Position numbers and translations under genes: made by a program. The notes under the pieces were generated by a model. The model saw only the letters and a list, made by a program, of their open reading frames with translations. It had not been told where the DNA came from and searched no databases. DNA of 64,000 bases from Heptranchias perlo (Eukaryota), in contig NC_090336.1 of assembly GCF_035084215.1 (NCBI RefSeq), forward strand, positions 23,622,001 to 23,686,000. The letters run 5' to 3'. Of this stretch, positions 35,621 to 55,958 are shown in pieces. Positions within the stretch are counted from its first letter, which is position 1. Every line of letters begins with the position of its first letter.

Positions 35621-36205
35621 AAGTCATGTCATTAGGAAAATAGGATTGACTGCCTACCTGAGTGAAATAAAATGAAACTCTCAATATCCTCAAGTCTCCT
35701 GCGGTCCTCCTGATAAAATTAAGAACCAGGAAAGGAGGACACCTTTCCCAAATTCTTTGATGCAGCATATATTCCACCGACAATGGAGACTATTACAATC
35801 ACACCGGATCGATCCTTCAGGATGGTGCTTGATTTAAGTGTTGACTAAATACTGAAAGTCTCTGATAACACACTAAACTAAGTAGCTCTCATCAAATCCT
35901 CCAACACTAAAGCCAGCCCGTGTAAATGGTACACCCCCACTATACCGGCACGGAGAGTCCTAGCACAGTAAGTGCTTGTGGATCTCATGGCACATCCTGT
36001 AATTAATCTCCATGTTGAAACGGCATCCACTGCACATCACTCAGCAGCTTGCTTAATATCAGTTTCCCCACTAATCCCCCGATCCCTTGTCCTGCAAGCC
36101 CACTCCCGAGCATTTTTAGGCTGTCCTGACAACCTCTCTCTCCCTCTTTCCCTTCTCCTCCTCCTCTCTCCCTGTCTGCTCTCCTCCCATCTCCATCCTC
36201 CCTTT

Positions 36206-36953
36206 TGTAAGAATATTGGAAATAGGGAAAAAATGACATCTTTTTCTTAATGCTACTAACCATCATGCTCTGCAGGTTGTGCTGCATATTTTGCTGAGTG
36301 TGTGGCTTATTTTGCTGAATTGTAAACTGTTAACTTTTGACTAGTGACTGACCCTTGTTACCCTCATTGTGAGGCAAGGCAGCTATGTGGTAAAAGAGGA
36401 ACAATGACCCAAAAAGCAGAACACTAACCCAAAGATAACGATAAGACCAGGACAATGATGAGATAGCTAGACGAGTGCGGTCAAATAAACTGGCCACCTT
36501 GAAAAAAAACATTTCAAAGGGTCTTATGGTTAGATGAGTAATGCTTAAACAAGTTGTCCATCTTGAATTCTTTGAAAAACAACCTTGTTCATTTATAAGG
36601 GCCTTATGAATATTATTCCATATATGGTGTGAGGTTCCTGCCGGGGAGACATAAAAACCCAATGTATTCTGAGCTCAGGGCAGAGGAATCAGTGAAATTC
36701 ACCCAGCTGTCAGAAGTACACCTATCTGTCTGAAGGTAACACCATTGTCAGAAGAACACCCAGCTGTCAGAAGGACACCTGACTGTCGGAAAACAACCAT
36801 GTCACCAAATTAATTACAAACTCTGCCCAGAGATTAAATGGGATAATATTGTTTTGATCTTTATTGTCTAATATTCGATACCTTTACATGTTTGATTTGA
36901 CTAAATAAATGAGACATTGATTACCATTTGGTGTCATATCCGAATCTGTTATA
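36206..36953 (+). repeat. 5' LTR (~748 bp)
   Basis: Homologous to 49253-49649 plus 52985-53282. TATA-like CATAAAAA at ~36650, AATAAA at 36904, ~19-bp CAGCTGTCAGAAG repeats at 36700-36790; ends TGTTATA (the 3' LTR ends TGTTACA). Confidence 0.92.
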
Positions 36954-36956
36954 AAT

Positions 36957-36974
36957 TGGCGAGCCAGCCAGGAG
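36957..36974 (+). promoter_or_regulatory. Primer-binding site complementary to the 3' end of tRNA-Arg(ACG)
   Basis: TGGCGAGCCAGCCAGGAG lies 3 nt after the LTR and is the reverse complement of the vertebrate tRNA-Arg(ACG) end ..CTCCTGGCTGGCTCG-CCA. Confidence 0.88.
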
Positions 36975-37090
36975 GTGACTAATCAATGTTCCGTGTTGAC
37001 ATCTAAAGGAAAATACATTTAAATATTGACAGGCGATCACAAAAAACATGAATTGTTCAAATTCCGCAAGTGAGGTTTTGTTTAATATAA

Positions 37091-38620
37091 GTGATCGTGA
37101 CAAGTGTCTATGAAATGTTAGAGAGAAAATGGAAAAAGGAACTAACGGGGTCTGGGGAACCTCTAGAATTTATCTCCAAAATAGTGGAGAAGAGTGAGGC
37201 TTATGAGATGGCCATAGAATGGCTCGAGGATCAAGTTCAAAATAAAAAGATGAAGGAGAGAGTGGTAAAAGGACCCTTATGTGGGCGGCAAATTTGTGCT
37301 CACTTAAGATTGAGGAACGTATTAAACAATTAAAAGAGGAAAATAGGAATCAGTTAGAGGAAACTAAGAGACTGTCAGACAGAAGAGTCAGATGAAAAAG
37401 TAAGATTGAAAGAACGTCTGACTGATGTCTTGACTATTCTGGAGAGTTCACAGTTGGTGGCTAAAATTGTGACAGCACAGGGAGTACAGAGTCAGAAAAT
37501 ATTACAAGAGAGAGATAGACTTACAGAGAAAAATGGGAGACTAGAATCAGAACTCACCGACTGTAGAGGGACTTTAAGGGAGAGTATGTGTCGTCCCATG
37601 AATTTGGTAGACCACATACTGTGTAAGTTAATGATTCAGGAGTTACAGGGCAAATTAGGCTGACAAGGGGCTGTGATGGCTACTGTAACATGAGGAGTTA
37701 TGGGAGGAACAGAAGGTTCACTGGAACACCGACGGGAAAGGTGAGGTGGATTGGAATGGTCTGGCAGGAGAAATGAGGAATGGGGATCACCAAGGTTGGG
37801 ACTATAACAGTCCTGACTACGGAGGGCTAACCGTACCTGTGAATGTGATTACCACTACCACCAGGCATACTGGGCAGGGTAACGTGACTAGTATAGTTCA
37901 GGAGGAGAAATCAATTTCCCCTCCTGAGACAGAGGTTCTGTCTCGGGAGCCAGGATCCAAGGGGAATGGTCCAATAGAAGTGTCTTGCCAAATTAACTCT
38001 TAATATGGCCCACCAGGAATTGTCCAAAATAGACCAAAAAAGGGGAAAATGGACTGCCTGCCAACAAACAATTAAGGTCTCCCTTAACCCCAATATGCAT
38101 GTCCCTGCCACCCCCTTGCAGGAGTTTAAACGCGATATTATGCATATATTGGGTATGAATCAAATTAATGTCATTAGTCAATGTGGACAAACCACTCAGG
38201 GACCACAGGAACACCCATGAGCCATTGGAAGTAGGTTATGGAACCTGTTTATGCTGACTCAACCCAGAAGGGTAGAGGCTCCAACCATAGACTCCGAGGT
38301 ATTTAAACAGGTACCCCCACTGGTGAAAACTGCCCTTGGTGTAAGTGTCAATAAAATGACCCAGTGGATGAATCTCTTGGAGGCGGCAGTTCCACCCTGG
38401 GGAATCCTAAATGACCATATGCCCAAAGCTCCACAGAAAAAAAAAATCGATATCGGCCGTAGAGGGATCAATAGGTTGGGGTAATAGTAGGAGTAATATG
38501 GTAAACGATAGGCATAACGACAGGTGTTTCTGGTATCAGAAAATGGGTCATTATGCCATCGACCGCTGGAGTAATGTAGTGCCCCCTGGCAAAGAAACAA
38601 TGAGGGAAATCAGACCATGA
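37091..38620 (+). pseudogene. Decayed gag (N-terminal helical/coiled-coil region, capsid-like part, degenerate zinc knuckle)
   Basis: Series of same-strand ORF fragments after the PBS. MHR-like QGPQEHP*AIGSRLW, and RCFWYQKMGHYAIDR as an eroded CX2CX4HX4C at ~38520-38565. Confidence 0.7.
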
Positions 38621-38739
38621 CTCCCCAAAAACCAGGAGGGGCGGAACAAAAATTAGATAAATTAATAACCCTCCTGACTACCCAACAATAGAAACAGATA
38701 CAACAGTTCCAAGAACAGTAGAGAGTTAAGAGAGATAGT

Positions 38740-39219
38740 ATGTGTACAATGACCCAAAAGGATGGTGATGGAGACGAGGTGGCAGAGGAGGCTGCGGACT
38801 ATCGCTCCCCAGACAACACAATGACACTAGGAGCCAATGATGAGAATAAAGTAGATTGTGAAGGCTTAGATGAGGACTGCGAAATGGAAGTCGCAGAAGT
38901 CAAAGAATCGTTTAAGCAAACCCAAAGCACGTTACAGAGTAAAAGACCAGAAGGGAGAGAGGCAGTCGTAGAGGTTCTAGAAAGTGAACAAAGAAAGAAA
39001 CTAGAACTCCCGGCTGGTTCTCCAGTTACCTCTTTTCCATTCACTATACCCCATCCTTCCAGCAACAGCGGGAAGGAGAAAACCTTTAAACAAGAGAGCC
39101 AATACAAGCCTGATAAATGGTCTTTCCAACATGAGATTTTAAATCGTAACAAAATTGAGTTAAGTAGGAAATATCAGAGAATGAAAATTCAGATGAAAGT
39201 TAAAGGACAGTTGATTTAA
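38740..39219 (+). CDS. 159-aa acidic ORF of unknown function between gag and the env-like region
   Basis: ATG-initiated open frame inside the provirus; no recognisable protease or RT motif. Confidence 0.3.
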   Translation: MCTMTQKDGDGDEVAEEAADYRSPDNTMTLGANDENKVDCEGLDEDCEMEVAEVKESFKQTQSTLQSKRPEGREAVVEVLESEQRKKLELPAGSPVTSFPFTIPHPSSNSGKEKTFKQESQYKPDKWSFQHEILNRNKIELSRKYQRMKIQMKVKGQLI

Positions 39220-40019
39220 AACAAGGGGAAAAGGTGGAAAGGGAAGATTCCGTCTCTCCTACTGTTACAAGCTACTAGATTTTTCTTTAGTTTTTAATGT
39301 ACTATCTCTTTAAGTGTGTGCACTCTGCAGCACCATTTCCTCTTTTTTTCACAAATCTGAAGCAGTGTTCACCCTTTGTAATCCCAGTCGTTTAGTATAT
39401 GCATTTCAATCGTTTTGTTTTCTAAGCATAGTACCACTGTTAAATGTACAAGAAATCAAAAGAGTTTGGAGAATTATTATACAGTTACGAGACTATTTGC
39501 TACGTTATGTCTGTGAAATTTGAGATCTAAATCCATTGTTTTCTTTTCAAAGTTTCTTTAAATTTAGTTAAAATCTGCTGTGAGGAAGCTGGCTCTGCCT
39601 TCTTTTCAGTCAGTACTGCAAAGAAGTTTTAAAATCATGTTGCCTCACATAGAGTTAATTGCACATTTGGGAAGACTTTGACCCTGTGGGTCTACAGCCG
39701 TCCAATGGGGAAAATTAGTCGGTAGGAAAGTGCAGAGTGTCCAAGATGACAGACAGTTGAGACGTCAGGTCGAGATTGTGTAAGGTGCTCTATTCCAAAT
39801 CTCCAAAGAAACTGGAGGCGGAAGAAATAATTCTTTGTGCTTTCTTCACAAATGAAGCAAAATGACAATGTGATATTAATTACATTTATTATTGGGGAGT
39901 ATAATATGACAGGGAATTAGAAACTGTAAAATGTGCCATAAGTAAATAATGTCCAATTTATGATACAGTGGCAAATGCCCATAAGAGATATGCAGATAAA
40001 ATGGGAACGAGAGGTAGAG

Positions 40020-40950
40020 AGTGATAGACAACAAAACAGAGGTATAAATTAGACCAGAGGAAGGCATCTTCAGGACGAGACAATTACAGTCGGATGCTGT
40101 GGGATGGGTAGGTGCGATAACAGGAATGTCAATTTGGAATCAGGAGGATGTTGAGACTATAAAGAAGCATACGCGTCATTAGAAACATACACAGGCCAAA
40201 CTGGTCAATGCACCAATCCTAAACACAATCAATGAGCTAGCACGGGAAGAACAATATGCAATGCACAACACTGCCAAGTTTTTCATTCAGACGCAGGGTA
40301 AAATAAATTAAACGATATACATGGGAAACTAGCGAGCAAAGGGAATAGGACGGGCAACCATTTGTACAGCATAAGGAATATTTATTGATCAAGAGACTTG
40401 CTGATATAAGGGACTATGACCTTGTCCATTGGTATCCTAGGGGAAATAGTGAAACAAATGTGAGGGTTGAAGTTCCACCTGTATAAACAATCCACAATCT
40501 GGGGTACTATTCACCCAATGGGCCAAGTTAGGGATAAGAATAAACCTTGATTTTTACCCTGTCCTTACCTAGCGTGGATGTTACGACCCGAATATTTTCT
40601 GAATTGGCAGAACCACGTTCTGTGGGATATTTAGAGAGAGAAGTGTATAAGCAAAGGGTAAATTCGCCTAAGTTAATGATGTATGATAGGAAAACTGCAT
40701 CATCAAATTTGGATTGTTGTGTCAAGCAGGGGAACCGATACCTAGGCCGAAGTGGATGTTTTCCTGCACGCATACCTGAGTGCTGAAGGTATAGACGTAA
40801 TTTACAATTGAGACTAATGTAATTAAAACTTTAAAATGGCAAGAAAAGATACGGGAATGAATTTGTGGTGACACAAACACAAGAAGCTTGTTATAATTTG
40901 CAGTTAGAGATTATTCCTGCTCTGTTAAATTTTTCCTTCTGTATCTTTTG
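40020..40950 (+). pseudogene. env/fusion-glycoprotein-like module 1 (decayed)
   Basis: RTRQ|LQSDAVGWVGAITGMSIWNQEDVETIK (cleavage site and fusion-peptide-like stretch, 40072-40160), then RSVGYLEREVYKQRVNSPK and CVKQGNRYL, which align with modules 2 and 3. Confidence 0.6.
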
Positions 40951-41837
40951 TCTTCTGATTTATGTAATTGAATGTATGTAGATTTTTTATCACACTAAGA
41001 GAAATGGTACACAGTTTTACCAAGCGCATTCGGGAAGAGATTCAGGTGAACTCACAGAGACAATGGGAACATGATAAAACATTGCACAACCAAATAGAAG
41101 GATTACTTAAAGGAATGAATAGGCAGATGGGGGATGTTATATCAGAACAAGGAGAGTCCCTGATTTTAATAAAACGACTGGTGGAGAGACAGGTTAGGGA
41201 TATTGGCAATCGTTCAGAATAACGAAGACAAAGGAACAGCTGATCTTAAAGGCAATTATGTATGGAAAGTTCTTACAATGTTCAGATTCAAAGGGGGTTA
41301 ATGCTGTAGAGAACAATTGGATCCCACAGTTTATATTGGACAAACAAATGAAAATCTAGAAATCAGATGGGGATATGGATTGATGTAAGGCACATAGACT
41401 GAGATTGGTGTATTATGCTAAGAAGCTTTGCAAGCCAAGTGATATTATTTCACGACTGATTCCTGTGGTTGTGGCAATACCATTGCTATCTGCTGATGTA
41501 AAACCAATGAAAGTATTTAAAGTGGAATCGATGGGCTTGTTGGAGGATGATATACATGAGGAATTTGTAAATTATCCGAAAATCGAAGATATCAGTACAG
41601 GGGAAAAGAATGATTCTGGATTGCACCAAACACTTCATGTATTGTTCCTGGAAAAGTGGATCCTGGTTGTGCAGATGTGACATTTCATAAAGTGCACGGC
41701 TAGATTGTGGTTTCACCCTGCATGAAGAATCCTCTAATTGTACTATTAAATTTGAAAAGCACCAATGTTGTTTATTTGGAGAGAGGAAGGAATTGCATTA
41801 CAACTAATAAGAAGCACTACACACAAGGCGGCACCAT

Positions 41838-44800
41838 GAGGTAAAGTGTAACCCCCAAAAATGGGTGGGTTGGGGGTGAGTGGGGAGTAAAAATCCTCCA
41901 TTTTCAGAGGGGGACCACATCCTGGCTCTAACATGCCTACTTCTGGGTTTAATCAATTTGGGCAGAGATAAGAAATAGTAAAGGCAAAAAGTCACTTGTG
42001 GGAGTAGTTTATAGGCCCCCTAACAGTAACAATACTGTAGGACAGGGTATACAGGAAGAAATAATGGGAGCTTGTGAGAAAGGAACATCGATAATCATGG
42101 GTGATTTTAATCTACATATAGATTGGAAGAATCTGATTGGCAAAAGTAGCCTGGAAGATGAGTTCATAGAGTGCTTTCAGGACAGTTTCTTAGAGCAGCA
42201 CGTTCTAGTGCCAACCAGAGAGCAGGCTATTCTAGATCTGGTAATGTGTAATGAGACAGGATTAATTAATGCCCTCATTGTAAAGGAGCCTCCAGGTAGC
42301 AGTGATCACAATATGATTGAATTTCACATTCAGTTTGAGGGAGAGGAGAGTAGGTCAAAGACTAGTGTTTTAAACTTAAATAAGGGCAATTATGAAGGCA
42401 TGAAGACAGAGCTGGCTAAAGTGAACTGGGAAATTAAGTTAACGGATAGGTCAGTAGAGATGCAGTGGCAGACATTTAATGAGATATTTCATAACACTCA
42501 GCAAAGATACATTCCAGAGAGAAAGAAAGACTCTAGGGGAAGGACGTACCATCTGTGGCTAACTAAGGAAGTTAAAGATAGTATCAAATTGAAAGAAAAA
42601 GCATACAATTCTGCGAAGATTAGTGGCAGGTCAGAAGATTGGACAGAATATAAAAAACAGCAAAGAATGACAAAAATGATTAATAAGGTAGGGAGAGTAT
42701 GAGAGAAAGCTAGCTAGAAATATAAAAACAGATAGTAAGAGTTTCTACAGGTATTTAAAAAGGAAAAGAGTAAGTAAAGTGAGCTTTTTTCCTCTAGAGA
42801 GTGAGTCTGGGGAATTAACAATGGAGAATAAGGAAATGGCGGATGAATTGAACAGATATTTTGCATCTGTCTTCACTGTAGAAGATACAAATAACATGCC
42901 AGAAATAATTGTGAATCAAGAGGTGAAAGGGAGGGAGGAATTTAAAACATTTACAATCACCAGGGAAAGGGTTCTGAAAAAAATATTAGAACTAAAAGCT
43001 GATAAGTCCTCAGGTCCTGACTGACTACATCCCAGGGACTTAAAAGAAGTGGCTGCAGAGATAGTAGATGCATTGGTATTAATTTTCCAAAATTCCCTAG
43101 ATTCTGGAAGGGTCCCATCAGATTGGAAAATAGTGAATGTAACTCCTCTATTCAAGAAAGGAGGGAGACAGAAAGCAGTTAGCTTAACATTTGTCCTAGG
43201 GAAAATGCTAGAATATATTATTCAGGGGGTTATAGCAGGGCACTTAGAAAATCTCAATGCAATCAGGCAGAGTCAACATGGCTTTGTAAAAGGGAAATCG
43301 TGTTTGACTAATTTATTAGAGTTCTTTGAGGAAATAACAAGCAAAGTGAATAAAGGGGATCCTGTGGATGTGGTGTACTTGGATTTCCAGAAGGCTTTTG
43401 GCAAAGTGCCACATCAAAGACTACTACACAAAATAAGAGCTCATGGTGTAGGGGTTAACATATTAACATGGATAAAGATTGGTTAGCTAACAGGAAACAG
43501 AGAGAAGGCATAAATGGGTCATTTTCAGGTTGGCAAGATGTAATGACTGGAGTGCCACAGGGATCAGTGCTGGGGCCTCAACTATTTACAATCTATATCA
43601 AATGACTTGGATGAAGGGACCGAATGTATGGTTGCTAAATTTGCCGATGACACAAAGGTAGGTAGGAAAGTAAGTTGTGAAGAGGACATAAGGAGTCTGC
43701 AAAAGGGATATAGATAGGTTAAGTGAGTGGGCAAAAATTTGGCAGATGAAGTATAATGTGAGCTTGCCCACTTTGGCAGGAGGAATAGAAAAGCAGTATA
43801 TTATTTAAATGGAGAAAGATTGCAGAACTCTGAGGTACAGAGGGATCTGGGTGTCCTAGTACATGAATCACAAAAAGTTAGTATACGGGTGCAGCAAGTG
43901 ATTAGGAAAACAAATGGAATATTGTCATTTATTGCAAGGGGAATGGAATATAAAAGTAGAGATGTTTTGCTACAGTTGTACAGGGCATTGGTGAGACCAC
44001 ATCTAGAATACTGTGTGCAGTTTTGGTCTCCTTATTTAAGAAAAGACATAATTGCTTTGGAGGCAGTTCAGAGAAGGTTCACTTGACTGATTCCTGGGAT
44101 GAAGGGGTTATCTTATGAGGAAAGGTTAGACAAGTTTGGCCTGTATACACTGGAGTTTAGAAGAATGAGAGGTGATCTTATTGAAACATATAAGATCCTG
44201 AGGGGACTAGAAGGGGTAGATGCTGAGAGGATGTTTCCCCTTGTGGGAGAGATTAGAACTATGGGCCACAGTTTAAAAATAAGGGGTCTCCATTTAAGAT
44301 AGAGATGAGGAGAATTTTTTTCTCTCAGAGGGTCGTGAGTCTGTGGAACTTCCTTCCCCAGAGAGCGGTGGAGGCAGGGTCATTGAATATTTTTAAGCCT
44401 GAGTTAGATAGATTCCTGATTAACAAGGGAGTCAAAGGTTATAGTAGGTAGACGGGAAAGTATGGTTGAGGTCACAATCAGATCGGCCATGATCTTATCA
44501 AATGGCAGAGCAGGCTCGAGGGGCCGAATGGCCTATTCCTGCTCTTAGTTCGTACGTTCGTATGTAACCCAGACAGGTTTGTCTGTGTGTGGAGTGCAGA
44601 CACCAAGAAGTCTCTCCCCCACTCAAAGCTGGCAGGGCCGATACTTAAAAGGGCAATGTATCTCATTGAGATACTTGAGGTACTTAATATTTTGTGTATT
44701 GGAATAATAAAACAAATTTAACCTTACCTGTTCAGGTTTCCCATCGCTTCCCATTCACGTCAGGTGAAAGCAGGCGGAAAGGGCCGGATCCATGAGCCGA

Positions 44801-45280
44801 GTCCCTTTATTGCGCTGCTTGTGGGCCCGGAGGAGCAGGAGTGCTTTATCCAGGCCCAACAAACTTACCTGACCAACAGGATCCCTGTGATTGGCCGACC
44901 ACCCACTATCCGTTCCGCAGCACCCCCCCCGCCCAAACTAATCCCTGGCTCCCCCCGCCCTCCGATCATCTCCCTGGCGCACCCCAAACTCCTCCGCTGC
45001 CCGATTTTCTTCCTGGCCTCCCCCCGCCCCCCCACGATCTTCTCCCCGGCCTATGATCCCTCCCTCCCTCCGCTCCCAGGCTCCAACAGGCCTTCATGCC
45101 CGACAGCCAGCCAGCCTGTCATTCAGGCTGTCTGCCGGGTGCGAAACCCAAAAGTGCAATTGAAGGGCCTCATTAAGGTCAGGATCACAGATTGTGACCC
45201 GCCCACTTACCTTCCGGGTTTCACATCCGGAAATCTTCCGCCCCACCGCTCTCTTCCTGGCGGGAATTTAAATTTACCCC
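41838..45280. mobile_element. Non-autonomous TIR element (PIF/Harbinger-like MITE) inserted in env module 2 and itself interrupted by a CR1
   Basis: Imperfect TIRs GAGGTAAAGTGTAA / TTTAAATTTACCCC, flanked by CAT at 41835-37 and 45281-83. Removal restores ACC-ATA-TGT-CCG (TICP). Confidence 0.65.
41953..44564 (+). mobile_element. 5'-truncated CR1 LINE (partial APE endonuclease plus RT, with stops and frameshifts)
   Basis: GVVYRPP, IMGDFN, SDHNMIEF, QHGFVKGKSCLTNL, FADD, HLEYCVQFWSP; 3' tail TTCGTACGTTCGTATG. Confidence 0.95.
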
Positions 45281-45543
45281 CATATGTCCGGGTTGGCGGT
45301 AACATTTTGCTTTACACCAACCAGAATTATTAAACTGGGGCTAAAATATTTTGCCTGTTGCGGCCACAATGTTACAAAAATGCAAGTAAACATTTCCCTC
45401 CAGTCAGAAAGCTTATGAGCGGTTGTAAATTTTGGCTGCAAAAGCATTACGTGTACTTAAACGTGCTGTCTGGAACATTAGATGGAGGGAGGGCCACTTA
45501 GAACTGACAGCCTTATTGAAGGATAGATGAGAGACAGAGACCC

Positions 45544-48500
45544 TTGGGGTTGTCTTACTCTCAAGGTGGGGTAGTTGCTAACCCAGAATACAAATGGTCA
45601 CTGCCCACCAACGGACAGGCGGGTTTTTATTCCACCTCAAATGAAAGGACGGTGTGGGCTGGAATGAAAATAGAACAGACACCGAGAGTGGCCATGGAGG
45701 ATTATGTTATCCCACCCCGACAAAGGATGGCTCAACTTCTCCTAACAATACCATCCTCTGACCATTGGAGTGTGTACCAAGTGGATGGAGAAACGGTATA
45801 TGCATCCTCTTACAGTATGCCATATATCGGGCTTCCTGAACCCAACGGATTGACTGAGCTAGTGTGGCAACTTTATTTTTCCTATGTTTATGAACTACAT
45901 GAGGGACGATATAGTTGCACTGGAACACTAGAATTAGAGAATCCATCACAAGTTAAAAAGAATTCTATAAAGATTCAAGAACAACAAATATATCACGTGG
46001 TTGAATCTAGTTGTGACAGGGCTTTATTTTCTGACTGATTGCGTAACGGTCTAGTGGTTCAGGCTACTCATTAAGTTGTGTACACAAATGTGAGATATGA
46101 GGTGGTCCTGGTTATTGTCGATTTAAGTAATGTAATGCTTCTGCAAGATTTATGTGACCTGCATTATGTTAACTGGGCTCGTGCGGTATTAATTCAGATA
46201 TTAGATGGGTTCCACAAGCAGACAGCAGGGAGACAATGGAAGGAAAAACGAGATGGGGACCAAATCGTGCACACTCGCTGACCCAGATCTATCACTGGCT
46301 GGGGGAGCTGCCGCAAGAGCAGTATTTAACAGGTTGGATATAGAAAATCAGTATTATCATCAGGGAAGACTGACAGGACAACTTAAGAAGTTATTAACCA
46401 AAATAAATGAGAGTAACCTGGACCTGATGGATGAGGGGTCAGAGGGTCTCTTATCCTTTAATGAAATAGGCCAGGGTGTCCATGCAAGCCGGAATAAGAT
46501 TAATGAAATCATATACAATCAAGAGACCATTGCATCTTGGGTCTCTAATGAGGTGGTGTCCAGCATGTATCTGAGCCTCTGGCAGGAAAGAATAGCAGAA
46601 GGGCTAAGAGATGTAGTTGAGGGAAAATTACCCACTTGGATAACAGATGAACAATTGGTTGCCTGGCGAAACTAACCTGTGCCTAGTAAGACTTTGCGAA
46701 GGTGCATATTGCCAAAGAACTTTGCAAACATTGTGGGGCCCAGGAAATCTTTGGGTTGAGAAAGGCATTGATGTTAGGGAACTTGGGGAAATAAATAGTG
46801 ATGTCTTGAGGAGTGTACATATTACAGAGAGGGAGGTGCTGGAAGTCTTAACGCGCATCAAGGTAGATAAATCTCCGGGACCTGATGAAATGTATCCCAG
46901 GACGTTATGGGAGGTTAGGGAGGAAATTGCGGGTCCCCTAGCAGAGATATTTGAATCATCCACCGCTACAGGTGAGGTGCCTGAAGATTGGAGGGTAGCA
47001 AATGTTGTGCCTTTGTTTAAGAAGGGCGGCAGGGAAAAGCCTGGGAACTACAGACCAGTGAGCCTGACATCTGTAGTGGGTAAGTTGTTAGAGGGTATTC
47101 TGAGGGACAGAATCTACAGGCATTTGGAGAGGCAGGGACTAATTAGGAACAGTCAGCATGGTTTTGTGAGAGGAAAATCATGTCTCACGAATTTGATTGA
47201 GTTTTTTGAAGGGGTAACCAAGAAGATAGATGAGGGCTGTGCAGTAGACGTGGTCTACATGGACTTCAGCAAAGCATTTGACAAGGTACCGCATGGTAGG
47301 TTGTTACATAAGGTTAAATCTCATGGGATCCAAGGTGAGGTAGCCAATTGGATACAAAATTGGCTTGACGACAGAAGACAGAGGGTGGTTGTCGAGGGTT
47401 GTTTTTCAAACTGGATGCCTGTGTCCAGCGGTGTGCCTCAGGGATCGGTGCTGGGTCCGCTGTTATTTGTTATTTATATTAATGATTTGGATGAGAATTT
47501 AGGAGGCATGGTTAGTAAGTTTGCAGATGACACCAAGATTGGTGGCATTGTGGACAGTGAAGAAGGTTATCTAGGATTGCAACGGGATCTTGATAAATTG
47601 GGCCAGTGGGCCGATGAATGGCAGATGGAGTTTAATTTAGATAAATGTGAGGTGATGCATTTTGGTAGATCGAATCGGGCCAGGACCTACTCCGTTAATG
47701 GTAGGGCGTTGGGGAGAGTTATAGAACAAAGAGATCTAGGAGTACAGATTCATAACTCCTTGAAAGTGGAGTCACAGGTGGATAGGGTGGTGAAGAAGGC
47801 ATTCAGCATGCTTGGTTTCATTGGTCAGAACATTGAATGCAGGAGTTGGGATGTCTTGTTGAAGTTGTACAGGGCATTGGTGAGGCCACACTTGGAGTAC
47901 TGTGTACAGTTCTGGTCACCCTATTATAGAAAGGATATTATTAAACTAGAAAGAGTGCAGAAAAGATTTACTAGGATGCTACCGGGACTTGATGGTTTGA
48001 CTTACAGGGAGAGGTTAGACAGACTGGGACTTTATTCCCTGGAGAGTAGGAGGTTAAGGGGTGATCTTATAGAAGTCTATAAAATAATGAGGGGCATAGA
48101 TAAGGTCGATAGTCAAAATCTTTTCCCAAAGGTAGGGGAGTCTATAACGAGGGGGCACAGATTTAAGGTGAGAGGGGAGAGATACAAAAGGATCCAGAGG
48201 GGCAATTTTTTCACTCAAAGGGTGGTGAGTGTCTGGAACGAGCTGCCAGAGGCAGTAGTAGAGGCGGGTACAATTTTGTCTTTTAAAAAGCATTTGGACA
48301 GTTACATGGGGAAGATGGGTATCGAGGGATATGGGCCAAATGCAGGCAATTGGGACTAGCTTAGTGGTATAAACTGGGCGACATGGACATGTTGGGCCGA
48401 AGGGCCTGTTTCCATGTTGTAACTTCTATGATTCTATGATTGAGCTCCCTTGTCTGGGCAACCAATCTGGCCTACCTCTATGCCGTATCATCGGTGGGGT

Positions 48501-49198
48501 GGTTAAAAGGAACCACCTTGACTGAATTCCATCAACCCCCCTGCCCTATTTGGTCTTGGGAGACCAGTGGGGGGCAATGAAACTTCAACCTTGTGTTCAA
48601 TGGGGCGATGACTGGGTTTGTGAAACTAATTACACTCAAGACCACCAGTCATGTGGATATATGTCTGCCGATGAATCACCCTTTTGTAACATGCGGGTAA
48701 TGTCCCACTGGCAGGGTACTCATATTGCTTACCAAGGAAATGGGAAATACTGTTACACGACCACTGAGAAGACCTTCACACATGGAGATAGAGACTGTCC
48801 ACTGACATGGCCCATGGGATGAGTAATTCATGTGGATCTGTGGGGAGTTGATGGGGGAAGCATTACAGGCTGTAATTCGATTTGGGCACCTCATTCCCCC
48901 TTTATCATTCAGTCTTAAAAGCATCTTGGATAGAAGTGTTACCTCTTAGAAACATCTGGTCAAAATGCAGCAGGATAACAAGGAAATAAAGAAAGGTATT
49001 CAAACCCTTGGGGCTAAATCATGGTGGAAGAATATCTATAATGCTGGTGATTCCCGATGGGCACGTTTAGCGTTGTTTGCTTTCTTGATCATACAAGTCC
49101 TGGTTACCATATCCCTAATAGTGTCTACCTGCTGGGTCTACAGGTGGGTCACCAAGTTAAAACAGAATGTGCGCCATTCCCCTATTGGACTAGATTGA
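45544..49198 (+). pseudogene. env/fusion-glycoprotein-like module 3 with N-terminal linker and C-terminal TM (split by the CR1 at 46761-48439)
   Basis: ORFs 45544 and 46078 share a frame. KEKR cleavage-like site, AGGAAARAVFNRLDIE, a heptad-like region, LPTWITDEQL, Cys-rich CVQWGDDWVC..CGY..C..GNGKYCYTT, and hydrophobic TM LALFAFLIIQVLVTISLIVSTCWVY just before the PPT. Confidence 0.8.
46761..48439 (+). mobile_element. Young 5'-truncated CR1 LINE with an uninterrupted RT frame
   Basis: Open frame to 48359 with KSPGPD, YRPVSLTS, GVPQGSVLGP and FADD; (ATTCTATG)n tail; TTGAG on both sides (46756-60, 48440-44). Confidence 0.97.
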
Positions 49199-49239
49199 TT
49201 AAATAAGTGAGGGGTTGAAGCCTTAGTCTTCTCTCCCTT

Positions 49240-49250
49240 AAGGTGGGGAA
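49240..49250 (+). promoter_or_regulatory. Polypurine tract
   Basis: AAGGTGGGGAA lies 2 nt before the 3' LTR. Confidence 0.8.
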
Positions 49251-49252
49251 TC

Positions 49253-52200
49253 TGTAAGAATATTGGAAATAGGGAAAAATTGACATTTTTTCTTAATGCT
49301 ACTAACCATCATGCTCTGCAGGTTGTGCTGCATATTTTGCTGAGCGTGTGGCTTATTTTGGTGAATTGTAAACTGTTAACTTTTGACTAGTGACTAGTGA
49401 ATCACTGTGAGGCAAGGCAGCTATGTGGTAAAAAAGGAACAATGACCCAAAAAGCAGAACAATAATCCAAAGATAATGATAAGACCAGGACAGTGACGAG
49501 ATAGCTAGACGAGTGTGGTCAAATAAACTGGCCATCTTGAGAAACAACTTGCAAAGGGTCTTGAGGTTAGATGAATAATGTTACAACAAGCTGACCATCT
49601 TGAATTCTTCAAAAAAAACAACTTTGTTAATCTAAGAACCTTATGAATAACAATAGTATAGTGGTTATGTTACTGGGCTAATAATCCAGAGGCCTGGACT
49701 AAAATCCAGAGTCATGAGTTCAAATCCCGCCACGGCAGCTGGCGAATTTAAATTCAATTAAATTCAATTAATTACAATTAAAAAAAATCTGGAATTAAAA
49801 TACTAGTATCAGTAATGATGGCCATGAAACTACCGGATTGTCGTAAAAACCCATCTGGTTCACTAATGTCCTTTAGGGAAGGAAGCCTGCCGCCCTTACC
49901 CGGTCTGGCCTATATGTGACTCCAGACCCACAGCAATGTGGTTGATTCTTAATTGCCCTCTGAAATGGCCTAGCAAGCCACTCAGTTGTAAAATCTCGCT
50001 ACGAAAAGTCATAATAAGAATAAAACCGGACGGACCACCCGGCATCGGACCACTAGGCACCGGACACGACAACGGCAAAACACCAAGCCCAGTCGACCCT
50101 GCAAGGTCCTCCTTACTAACATCTGGGGACTTGTGCCAAAATTGGGAGAGCTGTCCCACAGACTAGTCAAGCAACAGCCTGACATAGCCATACTCACAGA
50201 ATCATATCTTTCAGCCAACGTCCCAGAATCTTCCATCACCATCCCTGGGTATGTCCTGTCCCACCGGCAGGACAGACCCACCAGAGGTGGCGGTACAGTG
50301 ATATACAGTCAGGAGGGAGTGGCCCTGGGAGTCCTCAACATTGACTCTGGACCCCATGAAATCTCATGGCATCAGGTCAAACATGGGCAAGGAAACCTCC
50401 TGCTGATTACCACCTACCGTCCTCCCTCAGCTGATGAATCAGTCCTCCTCCATGTTGAACACCACTTGGAGGAAGCACTGAGGGTAGCAAGGGCACAAAA
50501 TGTACTCTGGGTGGGGGACTTCAACGTCCATCACCAAGAGTGGCTCGGTAGCACCACTACTGACCGAGCTGGCCGAGTCCTGAAGGACATAGCTGCCAGA
50601 CTGGGCCTGCGGCAGGTGGTGAGCGAACCAACACGAGGGAAAAGCTTACTTGACCTCGTCCTCACCAATCTACCTGTCGCAAATACATCTGTCCATGACA
50701 GTATTGGTAGGAGTGACCACCGCACAGTCCTCGTGGAGATGAAATCCTGTCTTCGCACTGAGGACACCATCCAACGTGTTGTGTGGCACTACCACCGTGC
50801 TAAATGGGACAGATTCAGAACAGATCTGGCAGCTCAAAACTGGGCATCCATGAGGCGCTGTGGGCCATCAGCAGCAGCAGAATTGTATTCCAGCACAATC
50901 TGTAACCTCATGGCCCGGCATATTCCTCACTCTACCATTACCAACAAGCCAGGGGATCAACCCTGGTTCAATGAGGAGTGTAGAAGAGCATGTCAGGAGC
51001 AGCACCAGGCGTACCTAAAAATGAGGTGCCAACCTGGTGAAGCTACAACTCAGGACTACATGCATGCTAAACAGCGGAAGCAACATGCTATAGACAGAGC
51101 TAAGCGATTCCACAACCAACGGATCAGATCAAAGCTCTGCAGTCCTGCCACATCCAGTCGTGAATGGTGGTGGACAATTAAACAACTAACGGGAGGAGGA
51201 GGCTCTGCAAACATCCCCATTCTCAATGATGGCGGAGTCCAGCACGTGAGTGCAAAAGACAAGGCTGAAGCGTTTGCAACCATCTTCAGCCAGAAGTGCC
51301 GAGTGGATAATCCATCTCAGCCTCCTCCCGATATCCCCACCATCACGGAAGCCAGTCTTCGGCCAATTCGATTCACTCCACGTGATATCAAGAAACGGCT
51401 AAGTGCACTGGATACAGCAAAGGCTATGGGCCCCGACAACATCCCAGCTGTAGTGCTGAAGACTTGTGCTCCAGAACTAGCTGCGCCTCTAGCCAAGCTG
51501 TTCCAGTACAGCTACAACACTGGCATCCACCCGACAATGTGGAAAATTGCCCAGGTATGTCCTGTCCACAAAAAGCAGGACAAATCCAATCCGGCCAATT
51601 ACCGCCCCATCAGTCTACTCTCAATCATCAGCAAAGTGATGGAAGGTGTCGTCGACAGTGCTATCAAGCGGCACTTACTCACCAATAACCTGCTCACCGA
51701 TGCTCAGTTTGGGTTCCGCCAGGACCACTTGGCTCCAGACCTCATTACAGCCTTGGTCCAAACATGGACAAAAGAGCTGAATTCCAGAGGTGAGGTGAGA
51801 GTGACTGCCCTTGACATCAAGGCAGCATTTGACCGAGTGTGGCACCAAGAGCCCTAGTAAAATTGAAGTCAATGGGAATCAGGGGGAAAACTCTCCAGTG
51901 GCTGGAGTCATACCTAGCACAAAGGAAGATGGTAGTGGTTGTTGGAGGCCAAGCATCTCAGCCCCAGGGCATTGCTGCAGGAGTTCCTCAGGGCAGTGTC
52001 CTAGGCCCAACCATCTTCAGCTGCTTCATCAATGACCTTCCCTCCATCATAAGGTCAGAAATGGGGATGTTCGCTGATGACTGCACAGTGTTCAGTTCCA
52101 TTCGCAACCCCTCAGATAATGAAGCAGTCCGAGCCCGCATGCAGCAAGACCTGGACAACATCCAGGCTTGGGCTGATAAGTGGCAAGTAACATTCGCGCC

Positions 52201-53282
52201 AGATAAGTGCCAGGCAATGACCATCTCCAACAAGAGAGAGTCTAACCACCTCCCCTTGACATTCAACGGCATTACCATCGCCGAATCCCCCACCATCAAC
52301 ATCCTGGGGGTCACCATTGACCAGAAACTTAACTGGACCAGCCATATAAATACTGTGGCTACGAGAGCAGGTCAGAGGCTGGGTATTCTGCGGCGAGTGA
52401 CTCACCTCCTGACTCCCCAAAGCCTTTCCACCATCTACAAGGCACAAGTCAAGAGTGTGATGGAATACTCTCCACTTGCCTGGATGAGTGCAGCTCCAAC
52501 AACACTCAAGAAGCTCGACACCATCCAAGATAAAGCAGCCCGCTTGATTGGCACCCCATCCACCACACTAAACATTCACTCCCTTCACCACCGGCGCACA
52601 GTGGCCGCAGTGTGCACCATCCACAGGATGCACTGCAGCAACTCTCCAAGGCTTCTTCGACAGCACCTCCCAAACCCGCGACCTCTACCACCTAGAAGGA
52701 CAAGGGCAGCAGGCGCATGGGAACAACACCACCTGCACGTTCCCCTCCAAGTCACACACCATCCCGACTTGGAAATATATCGCCATTCCTTCATTGTCGC
52801 TGGGTCAAAATCCTGGAACTCCCTTCCTAACAGCACTGTGGGAGAACCTTCACCACACGGACTGCAGCGGTTCAAGAAGGCGGCTCACCACCACCTTCTC
52901 GAGGGCAATTAGGGATGGGCAATAAATGCCGGCCTTGCCAGCGACGCCCACATCCCATGAACGAATAAAAAAAAATTAAAAAAAATATGGTGTGAGGTTC
53001 CTGCCCCCAGGGGGGAGCAAAAAAACCCAACGTCTTTTGAGCTCAGGGCAGAGAAATCATCAAAGACCACCCAACTGTCAGAAGAACACTTGACTATCAG
53101 CAGGCTACCTCACTGTCGGAAAACTTGAAACAACCACGTAGCCAGTTACAAACTCTGCCCAGAGATCAAACGGGGTAATATTGATTTGATCTTTGTTGTC
53201 GAATATTTTATACTTTTACATATTTTACTGTTAATAAATGAGACATTGATTACCATTTGGTGTCACACCCGAATCTGTTACA
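49253..53282 (+). repeat. 3' LTR, split into 49253-49649 and 52985-53282 by a LINE
   Basis: The two halves are collinear with the 5' LTR (..CCTTATGAATA | ATATGGTGTGAGG..). It ends in TGTTACA followed by the TSD. Confidence 0.92.
49650..52984 (+). mobile_element. Apparently full-length single-ORF LINE (APE+RT, CR1/L2-group-like) with a tRNA-like 5' head; one frameshift at ~51850
   Basis: ORFs 50133-51857 (ILTES, YRPP, GDFNVH, SDH, YRPISLL, LDIKAAFD) and 51839-52912 (GVPQGSVLGP, FADD). A-box TAGTATAGTGG at 49654, B-box GAGTTCAAATCC at 49716, A-rich tail. Confidence 0.92.
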
Positions 53283-55540
53283 CCTTTCTCATCTCTCCCG
53301 CTCACCTCCTCCACCACTTCCTCTGTCTCCCTCCCTCTCCTCTCTCCTCCCTCCCATCTGTTAACGAATGATCTGCCTTGTCTCTAAATATAATTTGGGT
53401 TCAGGCCTGTTGAATCAGACATGACTACATACATCTTAAAATCAATTTAAGCTTTTATTTGTGGCAGACTTCAAGTATACCGGCAAAGTAGCAACATGGA
53501 CCATAGCAGCATAGGAACATTCCACTATGAGGCAACCTTACCAATCAGGACACAGTGATTATCGCGGCCCTGGGAACCACCCCAACCAAGGTTTCTTTCT
53601 TCTGTGGAAGATACACTGTAGCTCCCTGTCTAGGTGCTGACTCTCTCCCTATATACCCTTCCTTATCACTACCATGTGACGGATCTGGCTGCGACTCCCC
53701 TTTGTTTTCAGGCTTCCATTAAGTTTATTACATTTGTCTGAGCCGATGGTGCCTTTTGCTAAATTAACGCTTTGGTGTTCTTGCAATCGGTACCAATAAA
53801 CATTAATTACCTTATCACTCAGCACATGCTTTTCATCTCTGATATAACTATTTGGCCTTGGGAATCTGCTGATTCCCAGAGCTGTTGGCATCGTCTTGTC
53901 TGTCCCTAGCAGCCTTTCCACATTCCCACGCAGGCTTCACCTTGATTAACTAACACTATGTGCCCCTTCTGTGTCAAGTCAACAAACAGACTTGCTTGTA
54001 TCCCTGACTATCCTTATCTCTTTAATAGAGAACCATCCGTTCAAAAGACAATCGCAACTTTGATTAGTTGTTTTAAGATACGATGGCTGAAAGGTTATAT
54101 TATGGTGCTTAACAGCCAGGAGCTGAGAATTGACACTACTACAATGTAACAAATCACTGGCAGTATTACATTAACAAACTTCATTAAATCACTTAATTTG
54201 AGCTGCATAAATCCCTGCTAGTGCCCTATTAGCCCTTTGCATACAGTTCCATTATCACCCAAAACCACCCTTTCTCCTTCTCACCACTCCCTCCCCTCAC
54301 GCCCTCGCCCTCATGCCCATCCCACTTTGTTACCCTCCCTCCTCTCTCCCTCTCTGCCATCAGCCTCTCTCTCCCCTCCTATCCTCTGTCCCTGCCTAAC
54401 ATTGTGATCAGTCTATGCTGCAATTACTCTGTTACTATGTCTGACACTTAACAGCAGCTTATTACTCGATATTTTTAGCATTTTGTACTGCTAAGATTTT
54501 CTCTTCCCACTCCTTACATAAGCAGAACTCCCTGGATATTATTAACCCATGAATTGAACCGTTTTAATGCACAGACGACTGCGTCATTTGTTTATTCACC
54601 AGTTGATCAGAACACCTTCTAGGCTGAAACCCCAGTGCTGTACAAAGGGAGTGCTGCATCTCCTAAGGTGATGCCCTGTGGACAAGACATTAAACCAGGT
54701 CCCCAACTGGTTCAGATGGTACATTTGAAGCAGAGCAGGGAACAGGTGCCAACATTTTGCCCTCAACCAACACCCACCAAAAACAGACAAACTGGTCATC
54801 TCTCTTTCTTATGTGGGATGATGTTTGTGAACCTAGATGAAGGTGATCACTGCACTTCAAAGTAATGCATTGAATGTGAAATGCTGAGATATATAAGGTG
54901 CTCTATAAGTGCAAGCCATTAGATCTTAATATGGGTACAGTTTTGTTTCACTCTATTAAAAATTGGAAAACTATCAAATACTAAATGGATCCCAGTTTCC
55001 TTACAAAGGAAGTCTTTCTCCTCATCAAAATATCAACAAGTTCAAAGGAATTTTGATCAACAATCTTCTTGTTTCATCTCTGATTCTGCAGCATCCAGCA
55101 GCGAGCTTGCTAGATGTTACTGAGCCCAATAAAGAGCTGGATTCACATCGGTCAATGGAGAATAGTGCAGGCAGGGAGGAGTTTCTGAGCCTCAGTGTGA
55201 GGGAGATGGATTAGCATAAATGAAATTATAGTTTGTAACACAGGGTGCTGGTTGGGGAGGAATGAGCGGATTTGACAGTGCCAGGGAGCCGGATGACTAT
55301 CAATGGAGATACAGTCAGTAACACGGGATACTGGCTGGGAGGAGTTACTGAGTGTCCAGATTCAGTGCTGTGAGTCAAAGAAGGAAGAGAAGAAACTGAA
55401 TTGAGAGGGCTGGCAATGTGTCCTATTCGGGAAAGGAGCTTTACCGAGCAGATTTGGCCGCAATCTCACTGGAGTGAGGTTTACTTGAAAGCTCTTACAG
55501 AAGTATCAGCCCCCAACTGGTTCGAAAGATCAGAATTGAA

Positions 55541-55670: not shown

Positions 55671-55751
55671 GATGAACTGCTAAAGCAAAGAGGGCAGGTA
55701 GAGGGAGAGAAAGAGAGAAGAAAAGAACGTGAAGGAAAGAGTGAGGACAGG

Positions 55752-55958
55752 ATGGGAAAAGGAGGAGAGAAAGGAGAAGAGGAGGGAGGATGCGAGAAAA
55801 AAATAGCCCTTTACACTTGGGAAGAGATTCAGAAGCACAATAGCAAGACGGACAAGTGGCTTGTGATTGATAGGGAAGTATATAACATCACTAACTGGGC
55901 CCTAAAACACCCGGGAGGGATACGGGTTATCAGTCACTATGCCGGAGAGGATGCAACG
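55752..55958 (+). CDS. fads2: Fatty acid desaturase 2 (delta-6-type) exon 1, cytochrome b5 domain; the rest of the gene lies beyond the window
   Basis: MGKGG start, [44 protein letters not shown]|gtaagg donor; 207 nt. Confidence 0.95.

What the first reader, a model, noticed from the sequence alone, without database searches (positions are those of the whole stretch)
36206..53282. pol-less LTR element with a tRNA-Arg primer site and a 5-bp TSD
Seen: all cis signals for retroviral replication are present (LTRs, 18-nt tRNA-Arg PBS, PPT, TSD). After removing nested inserts, the internal region is gag, one acidic ORF, ~0.7 kb without an obvious frame, and glycoprotein-like modules. I find no protease, YxDD RT or integrase motif outside the LINEs, and too little space for a pol. 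Known: Arg priming is used by snakehead retrovirus, and some vertebrate LTR lineages (lokiretroviruses) have Env related to Mononegavirales F proteins. Inference: a non-autonomous, helper-dependent family that traded pol for extra glycoprotein coding, possibly one half of a two-component (gag-pol / gag-env) system.
Basis: partly seen in the sequence, partly recalled or inferred. Interest (0 to 1): 0.7.

Follow-up and report, generated by a model that had tools for sequence, protein, structure and literature searches.

The report
Shark retrovirus parasite stacking envelope fossils
This is a dead copy of a multi-copy retrovirus family, in what is likely a shark genome, that lacks the copying-enzyme gene, shares its ends with a complete virus in the same genome that likely copied it, and carries three broken or cut-short envelope-gene pieces that likely piled up by repeated recombination rather than serving as extra coat proteins.

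Summary
The anatomy is real: LTRs, an 18-nt tRNA-Arg PBS, a PPT, no pol remnant, and three homologous envelope modules whose intact relative folds like RSV/paramyxovirus F. Pol loss is a family trait: 26 of 32 fetched gag ends run into the pol-less cassette, and its module A occurs at about 100 loci. The predicted partner exists: at least 8 independent loci share LTR and gag and carry pol. But the partner has its own single env, so this is no gag-pol / gag-env pair. The three modules look like recombination debris of different origin. A and B carry stops or frameshifts shared by most copies. C is the helper's env without its leader, joined behind a leftover internal PPT. The 'acidic ORF' is an in-frame Gag tail, partly from other elements' gag. 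The family TSD is 4 bp; 5 bp is peculiar to this copy. Best reading: a recKoRV-like recombinant parasite whose ends come from the helper and whose centre is older, likely copied in trans. RT groups with retroviruses proper, not the presumed lokiretrovirus clade. This scan noted F-type env in shark ERVs before, on other genomes.

The parts
36201..36205 (.). left target-site duplication CCTTT (family norm is 4 bp)
36206..36953 (+). 5' LTR (TG...TA; TG...CA in other copies), shared with pol-bearing copies at 77.5% mean identity
36957..36974 (+). primer-binding site, complementary to host tRNA-Arg(ACG)
37097..38692 (+). helper-type gag (coiled-coil N-terminus, capsid region, CCHC knuckle), broken in this copy; 79.8% mean identity to pol-bearing copies
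38693..39210 (+). 'acidic ORF' = in-frame Gag tail found only in pol-less copies; first part resembles the pre-capsid linker of another Gag, second part matches truncated gag of older elements
39211..40050 (+). non-coding spacer (shared stops in all phases), partly homologous to older defective elements; no pol remnant
40051..40750 (+). env module A: cleavage/fusion-peptide region to mid-F1 only; shared frameshift near 40540, shared stops at 40333 (11/22) and 40703 (16/21); intact relatives P0003, P0004, P0006
40760..41837 (+). env module B, 5' part (F2 to DII); 74% identical to an older env family; shared frame breaks near 41220-41250, 41600 and 41750
41838..45283 (.). nested insert: short inverted ends and 3-bp CAT duplication (DNA-transposon-like), holding a CR1-like LINE at about 41951-44570; absent from other copies
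45284..45571 (+). end of module B (no transmembrane segment), stop, short 3' UTR and a leftover internal PPT-like tract
45572..46755 (+). env module C, 5' part: the helper's env lacking its leader and first ~60 codons
46756..48436 (+). nested 5'-truncated CR1-like LINE
48437..49190 (+). env module C, 3' part with transmembrane segment; no stop shared among copies
49240..49250 (+). polypurine tract
49253..49649 (+). 3' LTR, first part
49654..52984 (+). nested LINE (endonuclease + RT) inside the 3' LTR
52985..53282 (+). 3' LTR, second part
53283..53287 (.). right target-site duplication CCTTT

Best explanation
The element is an old copy of a pol-less recombinant of an Arg-primed retrovirus with F-type Env: its ends match a pol-bearing form in the same genome, its middle holds foreign gag debris, a spacer and two broken env remnants, and it was likely copied in trans by that form's enzymes. 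Shown: the mosaic, its recurrence, the helper's presence, and the breaks in A, B and C. Inferred: the mosaic arose by reverse-transcriptase template switches between co-packaged RNAs. Each switch gave an older defective RNA the current helper's 5' end (LTR, PBS, gag) or 3' end (env tail, PPT, LTR), so remnants stack like layers: helper ends outside, B next, A and the spacer in the centre. Inferred: the pol-less form outbred its helper because it needed only the cis signals; its Gag frame was open during amplification but capsid was dispensable.
For: Segment by segment, LTR, gag, C1 and C2 match 5-8 pol-bearing loci at 77.5-82.3%. Tail, spacer, A, B and B's 3' UTR match none of them. B matches 13 of 22 non-family donor loci at 74%. 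The switch from gag to pol or to cassette is at one site, 38692: 26 cassette and 6 pol among 32 fetched loci (script classed 20+5, I read the other 7 by eye). Pol-bearing copies with env C: L035/36, L040, L033/34; with C tail: L104. Module A is at 102 of 108 loci at >=55% identity (150 listed matches); family pol is at 9 loci, 8 independent (40 of 310 candidates scored). Gag trees are star-like with pol+ and pol- copies intermixed. LTR pairs diverge 0.07-0.16, the pol-bearing copy 0.108, so the two forms were active together. B ends in its own PPT-like tract, followed by the LTR in 4 copies (L019, L028, L109, L132) and by helper env in the 3-module copies. Deletions recur at independent loci, including loss of the capsid region (37718-38515; in frame in L025, L048). 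PBS variants match different host tRNA-Arg genes. Older A-type relatives already stack a cut A behind another env (L125, L126, L127, L130).
Against: Trans-mobilisation and template switching were not observed; they are inferred. The order of events is unresolved: A-B-PPT-LTR copies could be ancestral or could be PPT-to-PPT deletions. The gag trees have almost no supported inner branches (3 of 18 and 0 of 20), so a single origin is neither shown nor excluded there; the shared junctions argue for one. Module C has no shared stop in 12 pol-less pieces, and a ~290-codon stretch of B stays open through paired frame shifts. Shared frameshifts rest on MAFFT columns of copies ~20% apart, so single positions may slip. 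Counts are lower bounds, and loci were chosen by search rank. A 5' piece of the tail, the 3' spacer and B's 3' UTR have no identified nucleotide donor.
Confidence: 0.8

Rival explanations
1. A two-component system: a gag-pol partner and a gag-plus-several-env partner complement each other, the extra env modules being functional glycoproteins.
For: The pol-less form recurs at many loci, shares LTR, gag and PBS type with a pol-bearing form, and keeps three F-type modules; C is open in the pol-less master.
Against: The partner has its own env with a leader. A and B have shared stops or frameshifts. A lacks leader and anchor, B lacks the anchor, C lacks the leader. Of the pol-less copies whose 3' half was seen, about 14 lost most or all of C and about 10 kept it (hand count).
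Confidence: 0.05
2. The pol-less form supplies Gag in cis, the fused acidic tail being a selected new domain, while env remnants ride along as passengers.
For: Gag plus tail form one ~700-codon frame with no shared stop. Gag-only non-autonomous BHIKHARI families exist (10.1101/2024.03.25.586437, passages).
Against: Capsid-deleted copies multiplied at many loci. The tail resembles Gag pieces of other elements (E 5e-5 to 0.007 on a small set). An open frame may only reflect recent fusion.
Confidence: 0.12
3. This copy merely suffered a local pol deletion, and the env repeats are nested insertions at this site.
For: The copy is old and holds three nested inserts.
Against: The same cassette and junctions recur at independent loci with different TSDs.
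Confidence: 0.01

Closest known systems
recKoRV1 (koala retrovirus x PhER recombinant; PMC6112702, abstract and passages read)
   Same: Both ends from the active virus, the middle replaced by an older degraded retroelement, disrupted ORFs, many integrations with TSDs; co-packaging is proposed there.
   Different: Here gag stays whole and is fused in frame to foreign gag debris. The middle holds remnants of two older env lineages. Some copies append the helper env behind a leftover PPT. The event is ancient and the Env is F-type.
BHIKHARI Bik-1/Bik-2 of zebrafish (10.1101/2024.03.25.586437, passages read)
   Same: Non-autonomous family with a gag but no pol, needing a partner; Gag with an N-terminal coiled coil.
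   Different: Bik-2 is stated to have neither pol nor env, and Bik-1 a single Gag ORF; they are assigned to lokiretroviruses, and no partner was found for Bik-1 in the reference genome. Here the helper is present and RT is not in the presumed loki clade.
Snakehead retrovirus, clade Huo, CmiERV lineage I (PMC4422223 part 1 of 2; PMC6001957 passages; PMC13517186 passages)
   Same: Retrovirus proper in a cartilaginous fish; in-frame stop between gag and pol; YVDD RT; Arg primer (recalled for SnRV, not checked).
   Different: Gag-pol stop is TGA here and UAG in SnRV; SnRV was not in my tree, so clade membership is untested; SnRV is complete.
Lokiretroviruses (PMC7947760, parts 1-2 of 4 read)
   Same: Env related to paramyxo/pneumovirus F; tether plus RNase H in relatives.
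   Different: Family RT groups with gamma-like retroviruses (100/99) apart from a ray-finned-fish dual-RNase-H clade that I take to be loki; the main text does not mention sharks or cartilaginous fish.
MaLR, VL30 and ETn non-autonomous ERVs (recalled)
   Same: Pol-less LTR elements mobilised by an autonomous relative and often more numerous than it.
   Different: Not known to me to carry stacked env remnants from several lineages.

Membership tests
Non-autonomous recombinant ERV (recKoRV-like) | Ends shared with an autonomous virus in the same genome | tested here: met
Non-autonomous recombinant ERV (recKoRV-like) | Middle replaced by sequence of older elements, no pol | tested here: met
   donors found for B, A and part of tail/spacer, not for all of it
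Non-autonomous recombinant ERV (recKoRV-like) | Recurs at independent loci with own TSDs | tested here: met
Non-autonomous recombinant ERV (recKoRV-like) | Mobilised in trans by the helper | not testable with these tools
   inferred from overlap in age and shared cis signals
Two-component gag-pol / gag-env system | Pol partner lacks env | tested here: not met
   L035/36, L040, L034 carry pol and env C; leader seen in L035, L040, L042
Two-component gag-pol / gag-env system | Env partner encodes complete envelope proteins | tested here: not met
Lokiretrovirus | Env related to Mononegavirales F | tested here: met
   AF2 model of the intact relative L053 (pLDDT 70.7) matches RSV F and hPIV3 F at E 6e-12 to 4e-11; window modules are homologous to it. 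No Pfam F hit
Lokiretrovirus | RT in the clade sister to all other retroviruses | tested here: not met
   caveat: no named loki sequence in the tree, midpoint root, family rows partial
Lokiretrovirus | CGIN1-like integrase | not tested
   no reference set at hand
SnRV-related clade Huo | Pol clusters with snakehead retrovirus | tested here: inconclusive
   no SnRV sequence among the 110 hits; tree shows only retrovirus-proper placement

The most novel reading that the evidence does not exclude
An ancestor of this cassette, or the older lineage that already stacks one env behind another, expressed tandem F-type fusion-protein modules on purpose: a pol-less partner supplying extra or secreted envelope chains as decoys or entry variants to its helper, i.e. 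a multi-envelope retroviral satellite.
Probability: 0.08. Interest if true: 0.75.

Novelty: new variant of a known kind. Interest (0 to 1): 0.35.

Why it matters
It is a fossil case of the recKoRV process run repeatedly. A defective RNA appears to have taken the ends of a newer virus and then outnumbered it about tenfold, keeping older envelope genes as layers. Such elements record env lineages and the order of invasions that intact proviruses no longer show. It also adds to the evidence that F-type Env is not confined to lokiretroviruses. It is a warning too: several env-like modules in one provirus need not mean several envelope proteins.

Tried and rejected
Pol remnants in 38690-40100: none. 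Pfam on family fragments: only weak zinc-knuckle hits, no F family. PDB by sequence: nothing for one env; the profile gave measles F at E 0.15, not significant. Single-sequence AF2 failed (pLDDT 34.9); the 69-row alignment worked. Word-based protein searches found only two shark proteins for env. The ESM Atlas gave no answer. Gag trees could not resolve an order of events. No gag or pol was found upstream of the six older A-type loci within 10-16 kb (one pol hit in L125 is on the other strand). Absolute dating was rejected because no host rate is known; the rate assumed in PMC4422223 would give implausibly wide ages. Literature searches for a pol-less multi-env ERV or F-type shark env found nothing on point (0 papers; 57, 71, 102, 103: none describing it); subscription journals and Repbase were not searchable. 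Supplements of PMC7947760 and PMC6001957 were not read and may list these lineages. No RNA data were examined.
Full report
Setting. The window lies in a 3.25-Gb genome. The host is likely a shark: the closest named relatives of an env from this genome are Scyliorhinus, Heterodontus and Chiloscyllium proteins. Without its three nested inserts (41838-45283, 46756-48436, 49654-52984) the element is about 8.6 kb, with about 7.2 kb between the LTRs.

Cis signals. The LTRs, PPT and flanking CCTTT are as described. The PBS at 36957-36974 is the exact complement of a host tRNA-Arg(ACG) 3' end plus CCA. Two other copies (L012, L038) carry a PBS matching host tRNA-Arg(TCG). The family duplication is 4 bp: 6 of 7 other two-LTR copies read show a perfect 4-bp and no 5-bp repeat, and one shows none. 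Three of 6 solo LTRs show a perfect 4-bp repeat.

No pol, and not a local accident. Seven pol or integrase queries from intact relatives found nothing at E<1 in 36000-53400. Profiles and the family's own pol frames scored at chance level on 40 pieces of 38690-40100. The interior is colinear at 79-86% in most of the 40 best-scored of 739 candidates. Of 32 fetched loci holding the gag end, 26 continue into the cassette and 6 into pol, switching at one site, 38692 (the loci were chosen by search rank, and one LTR-search locus was left out). Module A occurs at 102 of 108 loci at 55% identity or more. Family pol occurs at 9 loci, two of them near-duplicates (40 of 310 candidates scored). All counts are lower bounds.

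The helper. L093, L096, L104, L035/36, L100 and L102 share gag, and mostly LTR, with the window at about 80%. They then pass an in-frame TGA into protease and, where preserved, RT, RNase H and integrase; YVDD is seen in L033 and L093. L035/36, L040 and L033/34 continue into one env, module C. A hydrophobic leader and the start of an Ig-like domain are seen in L035, L040 and L042 (no signal-peptide program was run). Gag trees are star-like with both forms intermixed. LTR pairs differ by 0.07-0.16 in ten other copies, including 0.108 for the pol-bearing one, and by 0.12 and 0.22 in the two parts of the window pair. The two forms were therefore active in the same period.

The three env modules. 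An intact 780-aa env of another family (L053) hits the window three times. Its core, folded with a 69-row alignment (pLDDT 70.7), matches RSV, hPIV3 and other F proteins at E 6e-12 to 5e-8 and viral F-like proteins in BFVD. So all three modules derive from F-type Env. Their origins differ. C matches the helper at 79-82%. B matches 13 of 22 non-family donor loci at 74%, several with integrase remnants directly upstream and one, L134, with pol. A has only distant relatives here (38-48% aa at six loci) and intact ones elsewhere (P0003, P0004 from the frog Pelodytes, P0006). None is complete. A spans only the cleavage site to mid-F1. B ends before the membrane anchor, at a stop, a short UTR and a PPT-like tract resembling the family's own. 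C begins about 60 codons in, directly behind that tract. In the frame homologous to intact Env, A has a shared frameshift near 40540 and shared stops at 40333 (11 of 22) and 40703 (16 of 21). B has shared breaks near 41220-41250, 41600, 41750 and 45370. Against my reading: C has no shared stop in 12 pol-less pieces, and a long stretch of B stays open through paired shifts. Recent capture explains the first; the second is unexplained. By hand count, about 10 pol-less copies keep most of C and about 14 have lost most or all of it, through a few deletions each shared by several loci.

The acidic ORF and the gap. One phase has no shared stop from 37088 to 39208 across 58 pieces, against about 60 in each other phase, so the acidic frame is a Gag tail. 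Its first part aligns weakly to the pre-capsid linker of another Gag (E 0.002), its second to truncated gag of older elements (E 5e-5, 0.007, small target set). A DNA profile of tail and spacer hits six older loci (L131, L138, L139, L142, L146, L153), which are of both the B-type and A-type kinds. A deletion of the capsid region (37718-38515) recurs at many loci and is in frame in L025 and L048. In four older loci (L125, L126, L127, L130) a cut A-type env already follows another env's C-terminal part, so stacking has happened more than once.

Mechanism. Shown: helper-type ends, foreign middle, recurrence, overlap in age, broken modules. Inferred from established retroviral biology: template switching between co-packaged RNAs gave an older defective RNA the helper's 5' end and, in some copies, its 3' end with a cut env. 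Helper RT and integrase then copied it. This parallels recKoRV1, where KoRV ends flank an older element and the recombinant spread to many loci (PMC6112702, abstract and passages). Whether the A-B-PPT-LTR form preceded or followed the three-module form is open.

Placement. In an RT tree of 36 rows (25 chosen from the 110 hits, 11 from this genome), the family groups with shark sister families, a coelacanth protein and gamma-like retroviruses (100/99). It lies apart from gypsy elements and from a ray-finned-fish dual-RNase-H clade that I take to be lokiretroviruses (no named loki or SnRV row, midpoint root, two family rows under half filled). Wang and Han report F-like Env for lokiretroviruses (PMC7947760, parts 1-2 of 4), and their main text does not name sharks. 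Han places one elephant-shark lineage with SnRV (PMC4422223, part 1 of 2). Two earlier notes of this scan, on other genomes, reached the same non-loki reading and pointed me to that paper. A 2026 screen of chondrichthyan env used syncytin queries and ISD criteria (10.64898/2026.05.06.723177, parts 1-2 of 4). I also saw passages only of 10.1101/2024.03.25.586437, 10.1101/2023.10.26.564294, PMC12193657, PMC13517186 and PMC6001957. Nine searches showed no description of a pol-less ERV with stacked F-type env remnants; unread supplements and Repbase may hold one.

Verdict. It is a new variant of a known kind: a layered recombinant parasite of an F-Env retrovirus. Interest 0.35.

Noticed in passing
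L053:3195-5534 (minus strand): Intact 780-aa F-type env behind a decayed pol, 87% and 85% identical to predicted proteins of Scyliorhinus torazame and Chiloscyllium punctatum, with a Heterodontus francisci protein in the first cluster. Likely a co-opted env gene kept across shark orders; synteny not checked.
   Followed up: partly
L125:3540-4850, L126:3280-6020, L127:5560-6620, L130:370-8280: Older elements with two F-type env pieces in tandem and no gag or pol detected upstream; too decayed to say whether they were one open frame.
   Followed up: partly
L038:3545-4245: Short copy in which the first codons of gag are fused in frame to env C just before the point where the three-module form joins it; could be a deletion or a copied spliced RNA.
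   Followed up: partly
L055, L057, L060, L061, L064: A younger gag-pol-env family with F-type env and LTR pairs 95-97% identical where seen, unrelated in LTR to the window family.
   Followed up: partly
window 49654-52984: LINE with endonuclease and RT and a SINE-like head inside the 3' LTR; many copies are 91-98% identical. Other notes of this scan call a 3.3-kb element of this build a Zenon LINE; not tested here.
   Followed up: no
window 41838-45283: Insert with short inverted ends and a 3-bp CAT duplication, likely a non-autonomous DNA transposon, holding a CR1-like LINE.
   Followed up: partly
window 55671-56075: Frame with an HPGG motif that looks like the cytochrome b5 exon of a fatty-acid desaturase gene (recalled resemblance).
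   Followed up: no
G000 C13:24.55-24.70 Mb (L136): A B-type env fragment repeated about 20 times at roughly 3-4 kb spacing, apparently caught in a tandem array.
   Followed up: no
window 16474-16644 and 31525-31695; 22395-24311 and 28633-29394: A 79% identical dispersed pair, and related minisatellite arrays of 25-28 bp period.
   Followed up: no
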